Below are positions 7,129 to 20,000 of a stretch of 20,000 bases of DNA, piece by piece. The notes under the pieces are model-generated. The model was not told where the DNA came from and did no database searches. It saw nothing but the letters and a program-made list of their open reading frames with translations. Within the stretch, counting starts at the first letter, position 1. Each line of letters starts with the position of its first letter. The stretch lies in IMG/VR virus record IMGVR_UViG_3300028586_000786, one strand, 5' to 3'. The stretch comes from an uncultured virus (IMG/VR IMGVR_UViG_3300028586_000786). Lineage: Duplodnaviria > Heunggongvirae > Uroviricota > Caudoviricetes. The position numbers and the translations under genes are program-made.

Positions 7129-8121
7129 TTAGCTTCCGGTCCACCAGCGGTACCCTGCAGGGATGCATGTTTTTCCAGACTGAGCGAAGAACGCAGTGAT
7201 GGTAGTTGCCGAGTCAAAAGTACGGAACCCGACAACAGGCCGAACGGCTCCAGCGGAGGCCCATTTCACCGTTGTGACGACGGTGCAGGAGGTGACGTCA
7301 TAAATCGTCATTGTGCGGGCGCCGATGTCGGCTGCGAAGCCATATCGTGCTGTCGAGGAGCTTTGAAGAGTTGCCCGCCCGGAAGGCGTAACGCCCGCGC
7401 TTCCGCTTCCGAAGACATTGCGGTCCCGGTACATCAGGTCCACGTAGTAGCCTCCGCCGCCAGGTAGATAGGTGCTCAGGGCCCCTTTTCCTGTCGACTG
7501 CATTTCCCAGTACCATGTTCCGCTGGTCTTGCTGTTAGCAAAGGGAACGTCCGCAGTCTTGCCGCCAGGCGTTGAAACCGTCGTTGCGTTATTGCTGTAC
7601 GTCACCGAGGGAATCCCCAACTGGAACGTTCCTGGCGTGGTGGCCGTGGCACCTGCAAAGGTAGCGGTCAGAGGGGAGGCCCCTCCGCCCAGCGCGATTG
7701 ACAAGCTAGCGTTCGAAGAAGACTCCGCCTGGTTGTTACGGTACGAAACGGTGAACGTGCAGCTCGCATTGGGCAGCAAGTTAGCGGCGCATGACTCGTT
7801 GGCGGTAGTGAAGGGGGTGCTTATTGAGCCGAACGAGAGGGTGGCCGGTGACGTTCCCGTGTTCGATAGCGTGAAAGCCTTCGTCACCGACTGGCCCGCA
7901 GCGACCGTACCAAAATCCCACACATTTGGAGACAAGCTTACTTGTGGGGGCACCGGGGCCGGAGCGGGCGCAGGCTTTTCCGGCGCGACAGGAGCGGGGC
8001 CGCTGGCGCTTGCCGCTTTAATGCCTTGTGCATGCACGCGCATCTCGTACGGGGTGCTGGCCTGAGCCGTCATTACTGAGGTCAGCAGTAGGGCTGACAG
8101 AATCGTATTGCATTTTTTCAT
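7129..8121 (-). CDS. secreted protein with Pro/Ala linker, Ig-like (ASH/choice-of-anchor-D-like) domain and SPRY-like C-terminal domain
   Basis: signal peptide MKKCNTILSALLLTSVMTAQA; WDFGTV...FTLSNTG...C...L.PNASCTFTV; SGTWYWEMQ. Confidence 0.75.
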   Translation of the reverse strand: MKKCNTILSALLLTSVMTAQASTPYEMRVHAQGIKAASASGPAPVAPEKPAPAPAPVPPQVSLSPNVWDFGTVAAGQSVTKAFTLSNTGTSPATLSFGSISTPFTTANESCAANLLPNASCTFTVSYRNNQAESSSNASLSIALGGGASPLTATFAGATATTPGTFQLGIPSVTYSNNATTVSTPGGKTADVPFANSKTSGTWYWEMQSTGKGALSTYLPGGGGYYVDLMYRDRNVFGSGSAGVTPSGRATLQSSSTARYGFAADIGARTMTIYDVTSCTVVTTVKWASAGAVRPVVGFRTFDSATTITAFFAQSGKTCIPAGYRWWTGS

Positions 8122-8229
8122 TAAATTGTCCGGCGAAGGTGAATCGGTATCTGGGTATAGCGACATACGCGGAGGCGTCGGTCACGAGAAGTGCGCACCC
8201 ACCGACGCCAAAGACGCCGGACTATACGC

Positions 8230-9126
8230 CTATGCCCCGTAGCGAGTCATTTCTTCCACGAAGGCTGCGGCGCAGCGCGAAGTCACCTCGACGTTGTACC
8301 CGCCCTCCAGGCACGCGACCACTCGATGGTTTACGCTCAGGATTTGCTGCGCCACCCAGGCGTAATCTTCATCGCCCAAGCCAATAGTGCCTAGCGGGTC
8401 TTCTCGATGGGCGTCGAAACCGGCTGACACCAGGATAAGCTCCGGCTCGAAGTTCTTCACTTCAGCGAGCATGGTGGTCCAGGCCGCTCGAAACTCCCTT
8501 GCGGAACTGCAGCGGGCCCGCAGGATGTTGTCTGGGCAGAACTCGCCAAGGGCCAGATAGGGGTAGCCCATCTGGTACGTTTCCGCGAACAGCACATGGC
8601 CATTGCCCATGAAGGACAGGACGGTGCCGTCCCCCGAATGGGTGTCGATGTCCAGCACTGCAATACGGCTCACTCCCCGTGACAACGCATGGCGTGCTGC
8701 GATGGCGACCTGATTGGTGAAACAGAAGCCGCCGGCCGACTCACTGTGAGCGTGGTGCCCTGCATAAGTCACGCAAAACGCGTTCGACGCTTCCTCGTCC
8801 AACACCGAGTCGACCGCCTGGCAGGCGGCGCCGGCAGAGAGACCAATCATCCGCCAGGTGTGCCGGTTCAGGACCGTCTCGTTGTCGATATAGTGGTGCT
8901 TTCCCTCTTCGCGAGGCGTGTAAGCGTGCAGCTGGCCGACGAACGCACTGGTGTGGTTCCGCTCGAGCTCTTCCTTGGTTGCAAGTCTGGCGTCGCAAAG
9001 GCGAATACCGGGCACCGTTGCCACACGCGCGTAGATGCGCTCGAGACGGTCCGAGGCCATAGCTTTGTGGTTGGCGGCCGCGTCATGCAGGAAAATGTCG
9101 GGGTGCGAATAGACGTGAGTGGTCAT
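8230..9126 (-). CDS. histone deacetylase family (Zn-dependent amidohydrolase/deacetylase)
   Basis: GHHA, GGFCFTN, LDIDTHSGDGT, SAGFDAH and LEGGY motifs all present. Confidence 0.93.
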   Translation of the reverse strand: MTTHVYSHPDIFLHDAAANHKAMASDRLERIYARVATVPGIRLCDARLATKEELERNHTSAFVGQLHAYTPREEGKHHYIDNETVLNRHTWRMIGLSAGAACQAVDSVLDEEASNAFCVTYAGHHAHSESAGGFCFTNQVAIAARHALSRGVSRIAVLDIDTHSGDGTVLSFMGNGHVLFAETYQMGYPYLALGEFCPDNILRARCSSAREFRAAWTTMLAEVKNFEPELILVSAGFDAHREDPLGTIGLGDEDYAWVAQQILSVNHRVVACLEGGYNVEVTSRCAAAFVEEMTRYGA

Positions 9127-15410: not shown

Positions 15411-16361
15411 TCAAGCTGTTTCGCAAGCAGAGGCACTCGCTACCTTCTCGAGCCGTTCCCACTCTTTGCAGATAGCCCGGCCGCGGCGGTCCAGGTGCTT
15501 CAACTTCATCTTGAAGCTAACCGAATCGGCGCCGCCGAAGTCATCCTGATTAGCCCACAGCGCGCCCAGGGCGGCAACGAGCAGCAGCGGTGCGTCGACA
15601 TCGGCTGCGAAGGCCGGCACTGCCTCCGCTCCCATGGTATGAAGCTCCATGTCTCGCTGCATTAGGCGGGCTTCCTGCTCCGTTCCACCAACCGCGCGCC
15701 AGATTTCGGCCGATTTGTTGGCGTGGTCAGGGAAGTGAGCTCGCCCTTCAACCTCCTGGTACACGAAAGGCTTGCCGCAGTCGTGGTGTCCCAGGTAGCG
15801 AACGAGCACAGCGCGCTTCTCGCGGGGAAGCAGCAGCTGTGGGGAGCTAAAGAACCACTCAGGCACCCAGGCCGGCGCGGCTTCACGAGCCAGGTAGCCG
15901 TTTCGCACCATGGTAAGGATGTTTGCCTTTTCCCGCGTTTGCAGGCAGTGCTTCCACACACTCACCGAACCTTGAGGCGTAGCGCGCATCGCGCGGTTCA
16001 GGAAACCGCGCAGCACATCCTGCGGCACGCCTGCTTTGCGAGCCTTCTCAAACGCTTCTACGCTCAGCTTCGCCCGCGCCAGGCGCAAGGTCGATAGCTG
16101 CTCCGCCGTGAGCTCAGCGACAAGAGCCGGATGGATGCTGTCGTTGCCAATGCCCCGGGTGGCTTTCATGAACCCCGCGTAGGGGTCGCGGCCGTGGTGC
16201 AGTCCAGCCGGATTCGTGTAGGGGCAGAACCCGGACCATGGCTGCCAGCCGCGCAGCATGCTGAACAGAACGTAGTCCTGGGGCGTCGCGCTTTTGTCGC
16301 GGATACGTGCACGAATCGTTTCGATGCGAGCTTTGTCTTCAGGCGAGCGGCGGGTCTTCAT
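15411..16361 (-). CDS. fusion protein: unknown N-terminal domain plus HD phosphohydrolase domain (CCA-enzyme-type HD)
   Basis: ATGA overlap with the upstream stop; SVWKHC...HHDCGKP...G..HFPDHANKSAEI. Confidence 0.8.
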   Translation of the reverse strand: MKTRRSPEDKARIETIRARIRDKSATPQDYVLFSMLRGWQPWSGFCPYTNPAGLHHGRDPYAGFMKATRGIGNDSIHPALVAELTAEQLSTLRLARAKLSVEAFEKARKAGVPQDVLRGFLNRAMRATPQGSVSVWKHCLQTREKANILTMVRNGYLAREAAPAWVPEWFFSSPQLLLPREKRAVLVRYLGHHDCGKPFVYQEVEGRAHFPDHANKSAEIWRAVGGTEQEARLMQRDMELHTMGAEAVPAFAADVDAPLLLVAALGALWANQDDFGGADSVSFKMKLKHLDRRGRAICKEWERLEKVASASACETA

Positions 16362-16765
16362 GCTGCGACTCCTTCGGCGCGCGCCATCTTGAGCTTCCAC
16401 AGCGGGTAGCCGCGCAGCAGGGGGCGTTCGGCATCGGTCAAGGGGCGGGTGCCAATGGCCGAGTGCCCGGTATTCCAGTCCGGCTCGAAAAACATGTCGT
16501 GCTCGATGTCCAGGGACTCGAGGTGAGCCTTCGCCTTGTACAGCGCCGCCAGGTTCGGCACGGCCAGGACAATCAAGCTGGCGATACCGTGCTCCGGGCG
16601 ATAGAAGCTTCGGCCGGCTTCAGCGGCGGCATGTGCCGCTTGGACCATCTGCTGCTCCGGAGCCAGGTCAGTGCGCACGAAGGCGTAGATAGTGCGCTTC
16701 TGGCCGTCGTGAGCCAGGTCGGTGTTGCGTGGTGCTGCCTTGAAATTCGTCGTTTGCGTAGTCAT
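16358..16765 (-). CDS. peptidyl-tRNA hydrolase 2 (Pth2/PTRHD1)-like protein
   Basis: YAFVRTDL...VQAAHA, LIVLAV...L, FFEPD...SAIGTRP...L..YPL: PTH2-superfamily pattern. Confidence 0.85.
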   Translation of the reverse strand: MTTQTTNFKAAPRNTDLAHDGQKRTIYAFVRTDLAPEQQMVQAAHAAAEAGRSFYRPEHGIASLIVLAVPNLAALYKAKAHLESLDIEHDMFFEPDWNTGHSAIGTRPLTDAERPLLRGYPLWKLKMARAEGVAA

Positions 16766-16774
16766 GGGATGCTC

Positions 16775-16882
16775 TCAAAAAAAGGATTGGTCGAAGTTGG
16801 TCGAACAACGCTTTGAGGGCGGTCCCTGCGCAGTACGCAAGGTATGGGGGGTGCGACGGGTGGGGCAGGAAATCTATTGCAT
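16775..16882 (-). promoter_or_regulatory. leader ORF with in-frame amber codon: MQ*ISCPTRRTPHTLRTAQGPPSKRCSTNFDQSFF
   Basis: AAAGG RBS, ATG-CAA-TAG; read-through frame ends at a TGA overlapping the pth2-like RBS; 17 nt identical to the second leader. Confidence 0.7.
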
Positions 16883-16913
16883 GGCAGTGCCTTTCGGGTG
16901 TGGGGGATACGGG

Positions 16914-17417
16914 TCAGTTGTCGGCGGCGCCGAACTTTTCTTGCAAGCGCAGGTACTCGGCACGCTCGGCCGCTTCCTGCTCTTCGCGCCGGCGCACCGC
17001 CGCCTCTGCACGACGGGCCTCTTCGGCTTGCTTTGCCCGTTCTTCGGCGGCCAGCTTCTCGGCCTTCAGCTGTTCAAACAGAACAGTCACGCGAGCGTTG
17101 ATGGCAGCACGCGCCTCCTCCGCCCAGCCTTCGCCCGTCTCCGGGTTGCAGTGCGCTTCGACTTTCCAGCAATCCGGGTCGTTGTTGTCGTCGCGGCCGT
17201 TGAGCAGCAGGGTGTACTCGAACGAGCAGTACTCGCGACCTTTGCTCTCTTCGTCGAAGAGCCGGCGAGCCCATTCAGCAGCCACTTCCTCTTTGGTAAA
17301 ACAGACCTTCAGGAAGAAATCCGACGACGACCGCTCCATGACGCAGCCGCGGCAGGTGTCGACGCCGTCTTCGCGGTAGCCGATGAGCGTGTAGGTGAAC
17401 TCAGGTGCGATATTCAT
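16914..17417 (-). CDS. hypothetical protein with CxxC and C-terminal charged coiled coil
   Basis: ATGA-coupled to the upstream gene; GGGAG RBS. Confidence 0.75.
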   Translation of the reverse strand: MNIAPEFTYTLIGYREDGVDTCRGCVMERSSSDFFLKVCFTKEEVAAEWARRLFDEESKGREYCSFEYTLLLNGRDDNNDPDCWKVEAHCNPETGEGWAEEARAAINARVTVLFEQLKAEKLAAEERAKQAEEARRAEAAVRRREEQEAAERAEYLRLQEKFGAADN

Positions 17418-18052
17418 GCTGCACTCCCTTCAGTGTTTGCGTTGGACAGCAGGGCTTCCCAGGTAGCGGTGAAGTAGGCGGGCGCATAGTCGCCGTTGAT
17501 GTCCCAAGTCAGCACCAGGCCATCACCATCCACGGCCACTTCGTCAGGGTCCAGGTAGGCGCCCCAGTGAGACCTCGGGCACTTGCCGGCTTCCTGCGCC
17601 AGCTCTTCTGCACGCTCGCGGTACTTATCCCTCAAACCGTCGAGTAGGTGGGTCGGCTCACGTTGCTCCTCGGCGCGCAGGTTCTCCGCAGCTTGCTTGG
17701 CGCTGACGCACTTATGCTTTGCCGCCGAGATGGCTCGCTCCGCAGCGAGGGCCTGCTCCTTCAAGTCCTGCGCCTTGAGCTCGATACCGGCCTCCAGGTC
17801 GTCAGCCACTTCGCCGAGGCGAGGCAGCGCGTTCCAGTGCTGCACCGCGGTCTCCATCGAGCACCAGAATTGCTCGATGTCCGTGAAGCCGCAGGTGCGG
17901 CACTTGATACGCACCATCTCGGAGCTGTCGTAGCGGCTGTAGCCATAGCGATGCGCCGCTCCGTTACAGCGTGGGCATGCTTTCAGAGGGGCTTCGTCCC
18001 AATCAAAGTCCGCATCTACGTCGGTAGCGTTCATGTCGTTCGGCGTCGTCAT
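17414..18052 (-). CDS. Lar (restriction alleviation)-like Zn-ribbon protein with C-terminal extension
   Basis: LKACPRCNG...IKCRTCG...AVQHWN; GGAGG RBS. Confidence 0.75.
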   Translation of the reverse strand: MTTPNDMNATDVDADFDWDEAPLKACPRCNGAAHRYGYSRYDSSEMVRIKCRTCGFTDIEQFWCSMETAVQHWNALPRLGEVADDLEAGIELKAQDLKEQALAAERAISAAKHKCVSAKQAAENLRAEEQREPTHLLDGLRDKYRERAEELAQEAGKCPRSHWGAYLDPDEVAVDGDGLVLTWDINGDYAPAYFTATWEALLSNANTEGSAA

Positions 18053-18055
18053 GGA

Positions 18056-18544
18056 TTAGGCCTCCACAGTGCGGGCGACAGCGCTTTCGGCCGGAGCGAA
18101 CTCCGCTGCGCCCATAACCAAGGCCTTGTGCTTGCTGTACGAGCTCAGACCCTGGGCCTTCACGAAGTCACCGGCTTTGGTAAAGCCGTCGACCAGCGCA
18201 GCCTTTTGCGCGTCGCTCAGCGCTAGCGTCTGACGGGTCAGGAACGAGGCGAGGTACGGAACGGTCGACAGAGCTTCAGCGACCGCCAGGTAAGGGGTGT
18301 CGCCTTGGTGCTTTCGTCGATTCGGGCTGAACGTCTTGTAGAGGTCGCGGCCATGGAGAATGGCGTGCGCAGCAAACATCGACGAGGACAGCTTGTCGCC
18401 AGAGTTGGCGAGGGCTTTCCAGGCAGCGTTAAATGCCAGGTATTCGTCTTTCGACGAGAAGAAGTGCAGGTGTGCGTCGGTAACGCGCAGCGAAGAGGTA
18501 GCTGCCGTAGCGGCGACGGTATTGATGGTGTTGATTGCGGTCAT
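18056..18544 (-). CDS. hypothetical protein (starts MTAINT), similar to the N-domain of the 15411-16361 fusion
   Basis: AAGGAG RBS before ATG 18544; AILHGRDLYKTFSP...GDTPYLA resembles SMLRGWQPWSGFCP...GRDPYAG. Confidence 0.8.
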   Translation of the reverse strand: MTAINTINTVAATAATSSLRVTDAHLHFFSSKDEYLAFNAAWKALANSGDKLSSSMFAAHAILHGRDLYKTFSPNRRKHQGDTPYLAVAEALSTVPYLASFLTRQTLALSDAQKAALVDGFTKAGDFVKAQGLSSYSKHKALVMGAAEFAPAESAVARTVEA

Positions 18545-18669
18545 GGTAGTGCTCCTTGGACGGAAAAACAATGGGTTGCTTGCAGCCGCGAAGTGCGGCA
18601 AAAGAAAGGGCAACCGTGTCCAGGAGGACCGCGGGGGAGCGGGCAGGAAATCTATTGGTGAGCCATCAT
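18541..18669 (-). promoter_or_regulatory. leader ORF with in-frame amber codon: MMAHQ*ISCPLPRGPPGHGCPFFCRTSRLQATHCFSVQGALP
   Basis: GGAG RBS, CTAGAC box 18704-18709; TAG at 18652-18654; read-through frame ends in an ATGA overlap with the next gene. Confidence 0.72.
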
Positions 18670-18725
18670 GGCATGCTCCAAATGGGTTAATCGTTGTTGC
18701 TTCGTCTAGCGACGCTGTTTATATC

Positions 18726-18932
18726 TTACTTCAACACAAAGACAGGCTGGGCTTGATTCCAGCTCCCCGTGGCCTTTGGGGCGGTACACATTTCGATGTC
18801 AGCCCTGCTGGGTGCGCCATCAGTCCTAAGAGGCATCCGTTTCCGGAGCTTCCGTGCAATGTGTTGCGTGACCTTCCACGCCGCTGCCTTTGTGTTGACT
18901 CTCTTCCGAGAATCGTTTCTTGCAAACATCAT
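18726..18932 (-). CDS. possible small basic protein (68 aa)
   Basis: ORF only; lies between the tRNA and the leader on the same strand. Confidence 0.3.
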   Translation of the reverse strand: MMFARNDSRKRVNTKAAAWKVTQHIARKLRKRMPLRTDGAPSRADIEMCTAPKATGSWNQAQPVFVLK

Positions 18933-19016
18933 GCCCCAGTTTTGCTAGGGCTGCAAGCATTTCAGTAGTCGGGCTTTTTGTCTTTCATGACCGCTCCGTT
19001 AACTTCAGTTAGTATT

Positions 19017-19111
19017 TGGTCAGTCCGACAGGATTCGAACCTGCATGGGAGAAGTCTCCTTCTCGCCGACCTTAGGGGGCCGGTGCTTTCCGCCGTTTAG
19101 ACTACGGACCG
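19017..19111 (-). tRNA. class II (Leu-like) tRNA with abnormal 8-nt anticodon loop CCCCUAAG; putative amber (CUA) suppressor
   Basis: acceptor CGGTCCG/CGGACTG, A73, encoded CCA; T-arm GCAGG-TTCGAAT-CCTGT; anticodon stem CCGGC/GTCGG; variable arm GAGAAG-GAGA-CTTCTC. Confidence 0.88.
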
Positions 19112-19120
19112 TATGAACAC

Positions 19121-19149
19121 AGTATAGCAAGTGTTTAGGCGTATTGCAA
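19121..19149 (-). promoter_or_regulatory. sigma70-type promoter of the tRNA
   Basis: TTGCAA-17 nt-TATACT, ending 9 nt upstream of the tRNA 5' end. Confidence 0.85.
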
Positions 19150-19169
19150 CAGGCTTTTAGCCAGACAAG

Positions 19170-19196
19170 AAAAAAGCTGACCCGAGGGCCAGCTTT
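19170..19196 (-). terminator. intrinsic terminator
   Basis: AAAGCTGGCCC..GGGTCAGCTTTTTT on the minus strand after the stop at 19203. Confidence 0.75.
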
Positions 19197-19202
19197 CATG
19201 AA

Positions 19203-19730
19203 TCAGGCGGGAGGTGCGACTTCCGTGTGCCCGGTAACAACTTGGACCTGCTTGTACACCTGGTTCGGCTCGAACAGCCGGTAGCCTTTGTACTGGATTC
19301 CCTTTTGCGAGCAGTACTGCTTTGCCCGTTCGACCATTTCAGCCAGAACGTCTGCTGGCGGCAATTCGTCGACAAAGATGGCGACGCTTTCGTAGGCGGG
19401 GAAGTTTGCCTTGGCCTGCTGAGGATTGAGCTGAGCTCGAACCTCGGCAGTATCGTCGAAATGGCTGCCATAGCCGTCATTGAACCTCCCCGGGGAGGGC
19501 CAGATGCTGGCCGGCCGCGCGCAGCCGCGGTCATCCGTCTCATCAGTCACGTGCTCTTCAAACCAGAGCGCGTGTTTGAGGTCCTCGAGCGATTCGTTTG
19601 CGATGCCTTGCCCGACGCCGCATTCGCCGAAGCGGCCGGTCATGAACGCACACATTTCGCGCTCGAAGCTTCCAGAGTAGCTGTCGGTGTCGATAACGAC
19701 AATCTTGCTGGAAGGGTGGTCAACTGCCAT
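19203..19730 (-). CDS. hypothetical protein
   Basis: AAAGGA RBS; VIDTDSYSGSFEREMCAFMTG...ECGVG, YESVAIF. Confidence 0.8.
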   Translation of the reverse strand: MAVDHPSSKIVVIDTDSYSGSFEREMCAFMTGRFGECGVGQGIANESLEDLKHALWFEEHVTDETDDRGCARPASIWPSPGRFNDGYGSHFDDTAEVRAQLNPQQAKANFPAYESVAIFVDELPPADVLAEMVERAKQYCSQKGIQYKGYRLFEPNQVYKQVQVVTGHTEVAPPA

Positions 19731-19805
19731 GATTTCCTTTGCTGGGGGAGGTGGTGGCCCGATGATAGTCCATCAGGCCGGGAGTTCGCAGGAGATGATG
19801 GGTTG

Positions 19806-20000
19806 TTATGCCGCAGCCAAGCCAAGAAGGTTCTGAGCTTCTGCCAGGTCCTGTTGGGACTCGAAGCCGAGTTCGGCCTTCACTTCCCCACTTGCTGCGC
19901 AAGCGCCAGGATTCCACAGCATACAGTTGATTCCACGCTCTGCGAGCTTGGACAGGATGGCTGGAACATTGTTGGTGATGACGGAGGTATCAAATGCCAT
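19806..20000 (-). CDS. hypothetical protein (possibly 5'-truncated by the window edge)
   Basis: ORF reaching the window end. Confidence 0.6.
   Translation of the reverse strand: MAFDTSVITNNVPAILSKLAERGINCMLWNPGACAASGEVKAELGFESQQDLAEAQNLLGLAAA

What the first reader, a model, noticed from the sequence alone, without database searches (positions are those of the whole stretch)
19017..19111. Leu-type tRNA with an expanded, U33-less anticodon loop containing CUA
The cloverleaf is otherwise recognisable, with encoded CCA and a near-consensus promoter, although the D-stem is weak. A73, A15-U48 and a long variable arm are Leu-like identity features, and bacterial LeuRS largely ignores the anticodon. 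The loop is 8 nt (CCCCUAAG). 3'-stacking gives CUA (amber), and the four-base reading CCUA would match UAGG. It could be a deliberately weak amber or frameshift suppressor, a decoy resistant to anticodon nucleases, or a decaying gene.
Basis: partly seen in the sequence, partly recalled or inferred. Interest (0 to 1): 0.8.

Follow-up and report, generated by a model that had tools for sequence, protein, structure and literature searches.

The report
Damaged arginine-type tRNA on mobile DNA
A very large phage- or plasmid-like element carries a real but misshapen transfer-RNA gene whose codon-reading loop looks like a worn-down arginine loop rather than a stop-codon reader, so it most likely no longer decodes anything.

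Summary
The gene is real: a 95-nt cloverleaf at 19017-19111 (-) with encoded CCA, a well-placed promoter and an 8-nt loop CCCCUAAG. The loop is not a homopolymer error: an independent strain about 98% identical has the same loop. The Leu-type and amber reading is weak. A20a is absent, the variable-arm geometry is not Leu-like, and Leu profiles score low (12 bits, against 21 for Arg(YCU) and 28 for a phage long-arm tRNA(UAU) family that my patterns had selected). Counted from the D-arm the anticodon falls on CCU, two edits from an Arg(CCU) loop. The loop's first C and last G are predicted to pair (p 0.95), leaving six bases. No CUA-bearing relative of this body was found, and the window's three TAG stops give only short read-through. 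Best reading (0.5): a degenerate tRNA-Arg(CCU)-type gene on a 454-kb element, probably transcribed but not decoding. Rivals: a non-decoding tRNA mimic kept for a function (0.25), an AGG reader (0.13), an amber or UAGG suppressor (0.08). No mid-distance orthologue could be fetched, so ancestry and selection remain open.

The parts
19017..19111 (-). tRNA-like gene, 95 nt, with encoded CCA
   Evidence: ARAGORN; Rfam RF00005 28.9 bits; fold
19121..19149 (-). sigma70-like promoter with extended -10, ending 9 bases before nucleotide 1 of the tRNA
   Evidence: 9 of 12 matches; unchanged in strain X3; activity not shown
19172..19197 (-). terminator-like hairpin closing the upstream gene, which would separate the tRNA's transcription unit
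19105..19111 (-). acceptor stem 5' strand (C1, G2, G3)
   Evidence: sequence
19085..19102 (-). D arm: weak stem with C12.A23 mismatch, enlarged loop, C20 (U20 in strain X3), no A20 or A20a after the first GG
   Evidence: this pairing pattern occurs in 7 of 815 tRNAs compared
19066..19083 (-). anticodon arm, 18 nt instead of 17
   Evidence: three registers, -5.2 (8-nt loop), -8.6 (6-nt loop), -0.9 kcal/mol (7-nt loop with bulged G)
19071..19078 (-). 8-nt loop CCCCUAAG; CCU at 19076-19074 counted from the D arm, CUA at 19075-19073 counted from the 3' side
   Evidence: same in X3 and X4
19045..19065 (-). variable region: 6-bp stem with GAGA tetraloop, three unpaired bases, then U48
19028..19044 (-). 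T arm, canonical
19017..19027 (-). acceptor stem 3' strand, discriminator A73 (19020) and CCA
18545..19016 (-). 472-base non-coding stretch directly 3' of the tRNA with long-range inverted repeats; probably co-transcribed (inferred)
   Evidence: no significant Rfam match
19203..19730 (-). upstream gene, 175 aa, PHROG 23621 (unknown function); about 42-44% identical to Seunavirus-type phage proteins
15001..18544 (-). run of six same-strand genes downstream of the tRNA (unknown proteins, a Lar-like protein, a probable peptidyl-tRNA-hydrolase-like gene at 16358-16765)
   Evidence: operon structure inferred

Best explanation
A degenerate tRNA gene on a giant (contig of 453,991 bases) phage- or megaplasmid-like element. 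Its body is of the type shared by phage tRNA-Arg(UCU/CCU) and by a phage long-arm tRNA(UAU) family, and its loop is most simply a tRNA-Arg(CCU) loop that changed U33 to C and gained one G on the 3' side. Shown: the sequence, the lesions and their presence in two strains. Inferred: it is transcribed from its own promoter and probably processed, because the acceptor stem, T arm and CCA are intact; it is poorly charged (no A20 for ArgRS, no A20a for LeuRS, weak D-stem); it does not decode, because the extra G pairs with C32 and closes the loop to six bases without a U-turn uridine. It persists as a nearly neutral relic at the head of a transcript that runs into the downstream leader and genes.
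For: Score at the pseudogene boundary, with lesions in two separate arms. The loop is 2 edits from an observed Arg(CCU) loop, 3 from the amber loop (tied with 12 other anticodons) and 4 from Ile(UAU). Ungapped alignment from the D arm puts CCU at 34-36. Among 685 tRNAs not selected by my patterns the five best body matches are Arg(UCU/CCU), 31-33 of 42 positions, best Leu 28 (three of the five lie beside pattern hits). With those loci removed, Arg(YCU) is the best unselected profile, 20.8 bits against 12.3 for long-arm Leu. The closest single body is a jumbo-phage tRNA-Arg(CCU) that also has a variable arm (L152). A loop-blind pattern in GTDB gave 5 loci; the four readable ones are altered copies near an intact tRNA-Arg(CCU). 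C32-G38 occurs in 7 of 1090 normal loops. No family with this loop was found in the viral, metagenome or GTDB scans. No target for suppression is seen in the window. Tools call irregular loops in 21 of 1111 distinct tRNAs fetched, so such genes are a regular by-product of these elements.
Against: The tRNA differs at only 1 of 95 positions between the two strains, against 12 of 176 third codon positions next door (P about 0.01), and the one change is C20 to U in the D loop; but the neighbouring non-coding DNA is equally invariant (5 of 417), so this may be regional. Promoter, acceptor stem, T arm and CCA show no decay. The long-arm features (length, C/U20, several unpaired bases before U48, AGAC in the arm) fit the long-arm tRNA(UAU) family better than Arg, and that profile scores highest (27.7 bits, though selected by my patterns), so the Arg ancestry is not proven. 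C33 alone is tolerated in 47 of 1090 normal tRNAs. Expression and charging were not measured.
Confidence: 0.5

Rival explanations
1. A non-decoding tRNA mimic kept by selection: an abundant tRNA-shaped RNA with a closed anticodon loop that acts as a processing signal or partner for the structured leader behind it, or that soaks up tRNA-binding host proteins or anticodon nucleases.
For: Stand-alone gene with its own promoter and an upstream terminator; intact acceptor stem, T arm and CCA; low divergence of the tRNA and the 417 bases behind it; long-range inverted repeats in that stretch; tRNA-like genes with odd anticodon arms recur in phages and megaplasmids. Precedent for irregular tRNAs that are charged but not used in translation (PMC5389517 section 16).
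Against: No family found; only two near-identical strains. The downstream stretch folds only slightly better than shuffles (z -1.55, 9 of 100 as stable). The anti-defence phage tRNAs described in PMC11455837 (passages) replace the cleaved tRNA in translation; they are not described as inert decoys.
Confidence: 0.25
2. A working but unusual AGG reader: the arm adopts a 7-nt loop with CCU, A37 and A38 and a bulged G. It inserts Arg, or Leu if LeuRS charges it through A73 and the long arm, and may be prone to +1 slips like tRNAs with one inserted base.
For: CCU-A-A sits in the normal register from the D arm. AGG is used in 16 of 321 Arg codons of the window. SufJ shows that an arm with one extra base still reads three bases in the A site (PMC4238358, passages). 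nev-tRNAs show long-arm tRNAs charged with Leu against their anticodon (PMC3333845, abstract). A second GG in the D loop is followed by A, which could serve as A20.
Against: The 7-nt register is the least stable of three (-0.9 kcal/mol). A follows the first GG in 54 of 59 Arg(YCU) genes but not here. None of the 16 AGG codons leads into a long coding-like +1 frame. Whether AGG codons align with Arg in homologues was not tested.
Confidence: 0.13
3. One reading: a Leu-charged weak amber (CUA by 3' stacking) or UAGG four-base suppressor.
For: Counted from the 3' side the loop gives CUA or CCUA, and ARAGORN lists Pyl as an alternative. A73, A15:U48 and a long arm are present. C1-G72 occurs in phage tRNA-Leu (16 of 18 loci). 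Two of the three TAG stops are followed by G. Amber suppressors occur in related jumbo phages without known targets (PMC5852040, passages).
Against: No U33 or U33.5, unlike all nine top selected UAGN decoders (PMC4764823, Table 1). C32-G38 pairing closes the loop. No A20a; non-Leu arm geometry and D-stem. The six natural CUA tRNAs fetched are 74-78 nt with 7-nt loops ending CUAAA. TAG read-through gives 33, 21 and 15 codons with codon scores of -11.9, -3.5 and -0.7; cluster relatives of two of the three proteins have the same length; the deacetylase domain is complete before its TAG.
Confidence: 0.08
4. A sequencing or assembly error at the G5 run of an otherwise normal gene.
For: The loop contains a five-base homopolymer.
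Against: Same loop in an independent strain and in a further run. Removing one C would still leave C33, G38 and the D-arm lesion.
Confidence: 0.02

Closest known systems
tRNA-Arg(CCU/UCU) of large phages and plasmids (for example L152, L174, L175)
   Same: D-stem 5' strand GUCU, T arm and acceptor motifs, A73, A15:U48, CCU-A-A in register; L152 also has a variable arm with a GNRA loop
   Different: No A20 after the first GG, C33, one extra G in the anticodon arm, D-stem mismatch, longer variable arm
Long-variable-arm tRNA(UAU) family of phages (seen here, 46 distinct sequences; no description found)
   Same: Length (91-96 nt in those printed), U/C20, A15:U48, A73, encoded CCA, several unpaired bases before U48, AGA(U/C) in the arm
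   Different: The family keeps a 7-nt YUUAUAH loop and a perfect GUUU D-stem; the query's loop is 4 edits away
Bacterial tRNA-Leu (class II)
   Same: A73, A15:U48, G18G19, long variable arm; C1-G72 occurs in some phage tRNA-Leu
   Different: No A20a, different D-stem, three unpaired bases before U48, low profile score
+1 frameshift suppressors SufJ and SufA6, and selected UAGN decoders (PMC4238358, PMC4764823; passages)
   Same: One extra base in the anticodon arm
   Different: The selected UAGN decoders keep U33 and have no Watson-Crick 32-38 pair; these are laboratory mutants with known targets, and no target is seen here
Natural amber suppressor tRNAs of jumbo phages (XacN1, PMC5852040; XbC2 and RsoM2USA)
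   Same: Large mobile element; CUA can be read in the loop
   Different: Those fetched have 7-nt loops with U33 and short variable loops
allo-tRNAs and other irregular tRNAs (PMC5389517); nev-tRNAs (PMC3333845)
   Same: Long-arm tRNAs with anticodons that do not match their body; some inactive or charged but unused
   Different: allo-tRNAs have 8/4 or 9/3 acceptor branches, this one is 7/5; nev-tRNAs are eukaryotic and have defined sense anticodons

Membership tests
tRNA (RF00005) | Cloverleaf scoring at or above the gathering threshold | tested here: inconclusive
   28.9 bits against 29; ARAGORN calls it but flags a possible pseudogene
tRNA (RF00005) | 7-nt anticodon loop with U33 | tested here: not met
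   8-nt or 6-nt loop, C33; 1090 of 1111 compared tRNAs have 7-nt loops, 1034 of 1090 have U33
Bacterial tRNA-Leu | A73 | tested here: met
   sequence
Bacterial tRNA-Leu | A15:U48 and G18G19 | tested here: met
   also true of 49 of 50 long-arm Ile(TAT) genes
Bacterial tRNA-Leu | A20a | tested here: not met
   G follows C20; A20a in 77 of 80 long-arm Leu genes; requirement from PMC9976931 section 12
Bacterial tRNA-Leu | Long variable arm in Leu geometry | tested here: not met
   Arm present, but 3 unpaired bases before U48 against 0-1 in 70 of 80 Leu genes (simple hairpin finder)
Bacterial tRNA-Leu | Charged by LeuRS | not testable with these tools
   needs an aminoacylation assay
tRNA-Arg(CCU) | C35 and U/G36 in the anticodon; A/G73 | tested here: met
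   in the register counted from the D arm; identity set from PMC9976931 Table 1
tRNA-Arg(CCU) | A20 | tested here: not met
   C20 (U20 in X3) after the first GG; A in 54 of 59 Arg(YCU) genes; met only if the second GG is taken as G18G19
tRNA-Arg(CCU) | Body most similar to Arg(YCU) with the loop masked | tested here: inconclusive
   best of the unselected profiles (20.8 bits) but below the pattern-selected long-arm UAU family (27.7)
Amber or UAGN suppressor tRNA | CUA in a U-turn loop (U33, open 32-38) | tested here: not met
   C33, C33.5, predicted C32-G38 pair; compare PMC4764823 Table 1
Amber or UAGN suppressor tRNA | Genes of the element that need UAG read-through | tested here: not met
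   3 TAG stops among 22 genes, none extends into coding-like sequence; only 20 kb of 454 kb could be examined
Amber or UAGN suppressor tRNA | Suppression in a reporter | not testable with these tools
   bench test
allo-tRNA (8/4 or 9/3) | 8/4 or 9/3 acceptor branch | tested here: not met
   7-bp acceptor and 5-bp T stem
tmRNA | G3.U70 acceptor and tag frame | tested here: not met
   G3-C70; no tmRNA call at default settings; no Rfam tmRNA match

The most novel reading that the evidence does not exclude
A natural, selectively kept tRNA with an 18-nt anticodon arm that is charged by a host synthetase (Leu through A73 and the long arm) and deliberately alters decoding on a giant mobile element: AGG read as Leu, or +1 slips at AGG-N or UAG-G. 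It would be a wild counterpart of laboratory four-base suppressors, possibly working with the structured leader and the probable peptidyl-tRNA hydrolase encoded downstream.
Probability: 0.12. Interest if true: 0.8.

Novelty: new member of a known kind. Interest (0 to 1): 0.3.

Why it matters
If it is a relic, it matters little: it adds one more irregular tRNA gene of a large phage or plasmid, and it warns that a CUA inside an expanded loop can be an arginine CCU-AA loop read from the wrong side. If it proved charged and active, it would be a natural expanded-loop tRNA maintained in the wild, which is known mainly from laboratory selections, and would make deliberate mistranslation by giant elements testable. 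Two by-products may deserve more attention than the finding itself: the phage long-arm tRNA(UAU) family with a conserved arm motif, and the non-coding stretch behind this tRNA.

Tried and rejected
No own genome is held, so only 20 kb of the 454-kb contig was seen. BLAST of the locus found only T-arm-sized matches in phages and plasmids and nothing for 16000-20000 in plasmids. An exact 26-base viral scan found 0; a strict family pattern found 1 viral locus and 1 unrelated metagenome locus. The downstream protein's alignment found no locus in viral or GTDB collections. Syntenic relatives exist as proteins (62-74% identical, on contigs of 125, 45 and 22 kb), but their DNA could not be fetched. 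Seven named, distantly related megaplasmids and jumbo phages and two IMG/VR records showed no orthologue; only part of their tRNA sets was printed. Model R1 contains the query and Arg/Ile sequences, so its Arg hits are not counted as evidence. RNA runs X5 and X6 cover only the upstream gene; their lack of cover on the tRNA says nothing on expression. A Pro-like reading from C1-G72/A73 was dropped because phage Leu genes share it and Pro profiles score 15.9 bits. An apparent in-frame fusion of the deacetylase gene to the next gene through TAG was rejected: another stop follows after 15 codons. An integration-site remnant is not supported: no second copy of the 3' end in the window. Group I intron, RNase P or tmRNA readings of the downstream stretch had no Rfam support. 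A small frame at 18960-18826 has a near-zero codon score and is not a called protein. ARAGORN at a relaxed threshold gave noise. Earlier-findings look-ups by sequence and place returned nothing. No supplements were read; the supplementary tables of PMC5389517 and PMC4764823 could hold further irregular or weaker suppressor sequences.

Full report
Observation. The window holds one tRNA-like gene, 19017-19111 on the minus strand, which ARAGORN cannot assign (ccta) and flags as a possible pseudogene, Arg or Pyl. Rfam RF00005 gives 28.9 bits, just under the gathering score of 29, well below the 55-78 bits of the 150 listed tRNAs in five distantly related elements (97 weaker matches were not listed). 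Acceptor stem (C1-G72, G2.U71, G3-C70), A73, encoded CCA and T arm are intact; the D-stem has a C12.A23 mismatch, a pattern seen in 7 of 815 tRNAs compared. A sigma70-like promoter ends 9 bases before the gene and a terminator-like hairpin closes the upstream gene. The fold is only modestly better than shuffles (z -1.63, 13 of 200).

The loop is genuine. Two possible source runs hold all 129 sampled words. A contig of another study (X3) spans 18600-19800 with 26 listed substitutions and one insertion; the only change in the tRNA is C20 to U, and the G5 run is unchanged. A 151-nt contig of run X4 is identical across the gene. The two RNA runs laid cover only the upstream gene.

Setting. No genome is held. 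The proteins sit on a contig of 453,991 bases, from leaf litter if the two possible source runs are the source. Of 25 frames scanned, 8 match PHROG families, nearly all of unknown function; Pfam finds a deacetylase, a PEP-utiliser mobile domain, T5orf172, Ig-like and Lar-like domains. The nearest named records are distant: Seunavirus-type and jumbo phages (24-44%) and 0.27-1.3-Mb plasmids of Variovorax, Pseudomonas, Acidiphilium and Rhizobium (27-33%). The five such records searched carry 34-60 tRNA matches each. Whether the element is a phage or a plasmid cannot be told from this window.

What kind of tRNA. A73, A15:U48 and a long arm are present, and C1-G72 is no obstacle (16 of 18 viral loci with that pair and a long arm are tRNA-Leu). 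But A20a, listed as essential for E. coli LeuRS (PMC9976931, section 12 read) and present in 77 of 80 long-arm Leu genes fetched, is missing. Three unpaired bases precede U48, against 0-1 in 70 of 80 Leu genes. Long arms also occur on Ile(UAU), Arg, Met, Gly, Pro and other isotypes in these elements. I compared the body with the tRNAs in the loci fetched. Of 895 distinct sequences, 130 matched my own search patterns and were removed, 80 could not be parsed, and 685 were scored: the five best are Arg(UCU/CCU), 31-33 of 42 positions, the best Leu 28 (three of the five lie beside pattern hits). Profiles built from 25 sequences per group, loop masked, eight resamplings, with those loci left out, gave long-arm Ile(UAU) 27.7 bits (this group was itself selected by my patterns), Arg(YCU) 20.8, Tyr 16.4, Pro 15.9, long-arm Leu 12.3. 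The closest single sequence is a jumbo-phage tRNA-Arg(CCU) with a short GNRA-capped arm (L152; 35 of 42). A loop-blind pattern returned 22 viral loci (21 long-arm Ile(UAU), 1 Arg(CCU)) and 5 GTDB loci, of which the four readable ones are altered copies near intact tRNA-Arg(CCU) genes. The body is thus not Leu; it lies between Arg(YCU) and the long-arm UAU family. D-stem and loop point to Arg; arm length, C/U20 and the AGAC in the arm (42 of 46 in that family, 18 of 181 in Leu, Ser and Tyr arms) point to the UAU family.

The loop. Aligned without gaps from the D arm, positions 32-38 are CCCCUAA, with CCU at 34-36 and A37-A38, and the surplus base is the G behind them. The 8-nt loop is 2 edits from an observed Arg(CCU) loop, 3 from the amber loop (tied with 12 other anticodons) and 4 from Ile(UAU). 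Three registers are possible: 8-nt loop (-5.2 kcal/mol, CUA by 3' stacking), 6-bp stem with 6-nt loop (-8.6) and 7-nt loop with a bulged G (-0.9). The C-G pair that closes the loop has probability 0.95; C32-G38 is found in 7 of 1090 normal loops. Modifications and the ribosome could shift these registers; that is not modelled.

Suppression. In a selection that randomised positions 32, 33, 33.5, 37 and 38, all nine top UAGA, UAGU and UAGG decoders had U33, U33.5 and A37 (PMC4764823, passages and Table 1); this gene has C, C and a pairing G38. None of 24 viral stretches with this body type and CTAA near the loop is a CUA tRNA. The six natural CUA tRNAs met in the loci are 74-78 nt with 7-nt loops. 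Of 22 genes in the window, 3 end in TAG; triplet read-through adds 33, 21 and 15 codons, four-base reading 25, 19 and 35, none convincingly coding-like. Cluster relatives of two of them have the same length. None of 16 AGG codons opens a long coding-like +1 frame. Against complacency: XacN1 carries amber suppressors with no identifiable target (PMC5852040, passages), SufJ reads three bases with an extra base in its arm (PMC4238358, passages), and only 20 of 454 kb were seen.

Selection. Between the two strains the tRNA differs at 1 of 95 sites, the promoter region at 1 of 91, the downstream non-coding DNA at 5 of 417, and third codon positions of the upstream gene at 12 of 176. The tRNA is more invariant than those synonymous sites (P about 0.01) but not more than its non-coding neighbours, so constraint on the whole block and patchy recombination both fit. 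Irregular loops are called in 21 of 1111 distinct tRNAs fetched (the set is enriched by my patterns), so such genes are not rare in these elements. No mid-distance orthologue could be fetched, though syntenic relatives exist as proteins.

Mechanism and verdict. Most likely (0.5) this is a degenerate Arg(CCU)-type gene: probably transcribed and processed (inferred from promoter, acceptor, T arm and CCA), poorly charged (inferred from missing A20 and A20a and the weak D arm) and not decoding (inferred from the closed, U33-less loop). A tRNA mimic kept for another job is the main rival (0.25); irregular tRNAs that are charged but unused are described (PMC5389517, section 16 read), while the anti-defence phage tRNAs in PMC11455837 (passages) work by replacing cleaved tRNA. 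An AGG reader, possibly Leu-charged like nev-tRNAs (PMC3333845, abstract), gets 0.13, the amber or UAGG suppressor 0.08. It is a new member of a known kind, the irregular tRNA genes of large phages and plasmids. Searches for a description of natural expanded-loop tRNAs in such elements listed nothing matching; the library lacks most subscription journals. Other papers seen: PMC7609411 (abstract and outline), PMC13092985, 10.1101/614032 and PMC10688831 (passages, nothing on this gene type). Standard tRNA numbering and the role of U33 in the U-turn are partly recalled knowledge.

Noticed in passing
L022:2994-3086, L047, L074, L082, L110, L116, L195 and others: A widespread phage family of tRNA(UAU) genes with a long variable arm: 46 distinct sequences among 53 TAT tRNAs fetched, 45 with encoded CCA, 42 with AGA(U/C) in the arm (18 of 181 in Leu, Ser, Tyr arms), many with an unpaired 27:43 position. 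No description found in four literature searches; a paper on tRNA-Ile(UAU) of lactic acid bacteria was not held. It recalls nev-tRNA-Ile(UAU), which is Leu-charged.
   Followed up: partly
window 18545-19016 (-): 472 non-coding bases right behind the tRNA: 5 differences in 417 bases between strains, long-range inverted repeats (18983-97 with 18636-50; 18949-59 with 18577-87; 18884-98 with 18731-45), fold z -1.55, no Rfam or phage match. Possibly a structured leader or non-coding RNA. It starts with an 8-codon frame behind a GGAG site (18988-18962).
   Followed up: partly
window 16358-16765 and 15411-16361 (-): Homologues of the 15411-16361 protein are fused to a peptidyl-tRNA hydrolase domain (PF01981; P0032, P0034) or lie beside one in a phage; the adjacent gene 16358-16765 looks like that hydrolase by recalled motifs but had no Pfam hit. 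It lies in the gene run downstream of the tRNA.
   Followed up: partly
L196, L198, L199, L200: Bacteroidota genomes with extra copies of tRNA-Arg(CCU) whose anticodon arm is replaced or interrupted by a GC-rich hairpin, near an intact gene; three tandem copies 341 bases apart in L200.
   Followed up: no
L023, L026, L031, L049, L060, L066, L109 and others: Contigs of about 40 kb (host not determined) carry arrays of tRNA-like units with near-identical acceptor, D and T arms but scrambled, unstructured anticodon and variable regions.
   Followed up: no
L201 (phage 4MG), L214 (Variovorax plasmid), L158, L164, L239, L244: Single tRNA-like genes with intact bodies but short or irregular anticodon arms inside otherwise normal tRNA clusters of phages and megaplasmids.
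   Followed up: no
L014:1501-1602: A 102-nt tRNA-like gene with C1-G72, A73, CCA and an undetermined four-base anticodon.
   Followed up: no
window 8230-9126 (-), 7129-8166 (-), 17414-18052 (-): A histone-deacetylase-family gene, an Ig-like-domain gene with a probable signal peptide, and a weak Lar-like restriction-alleviation match among otherwise unknown genes.
   Followed up: no
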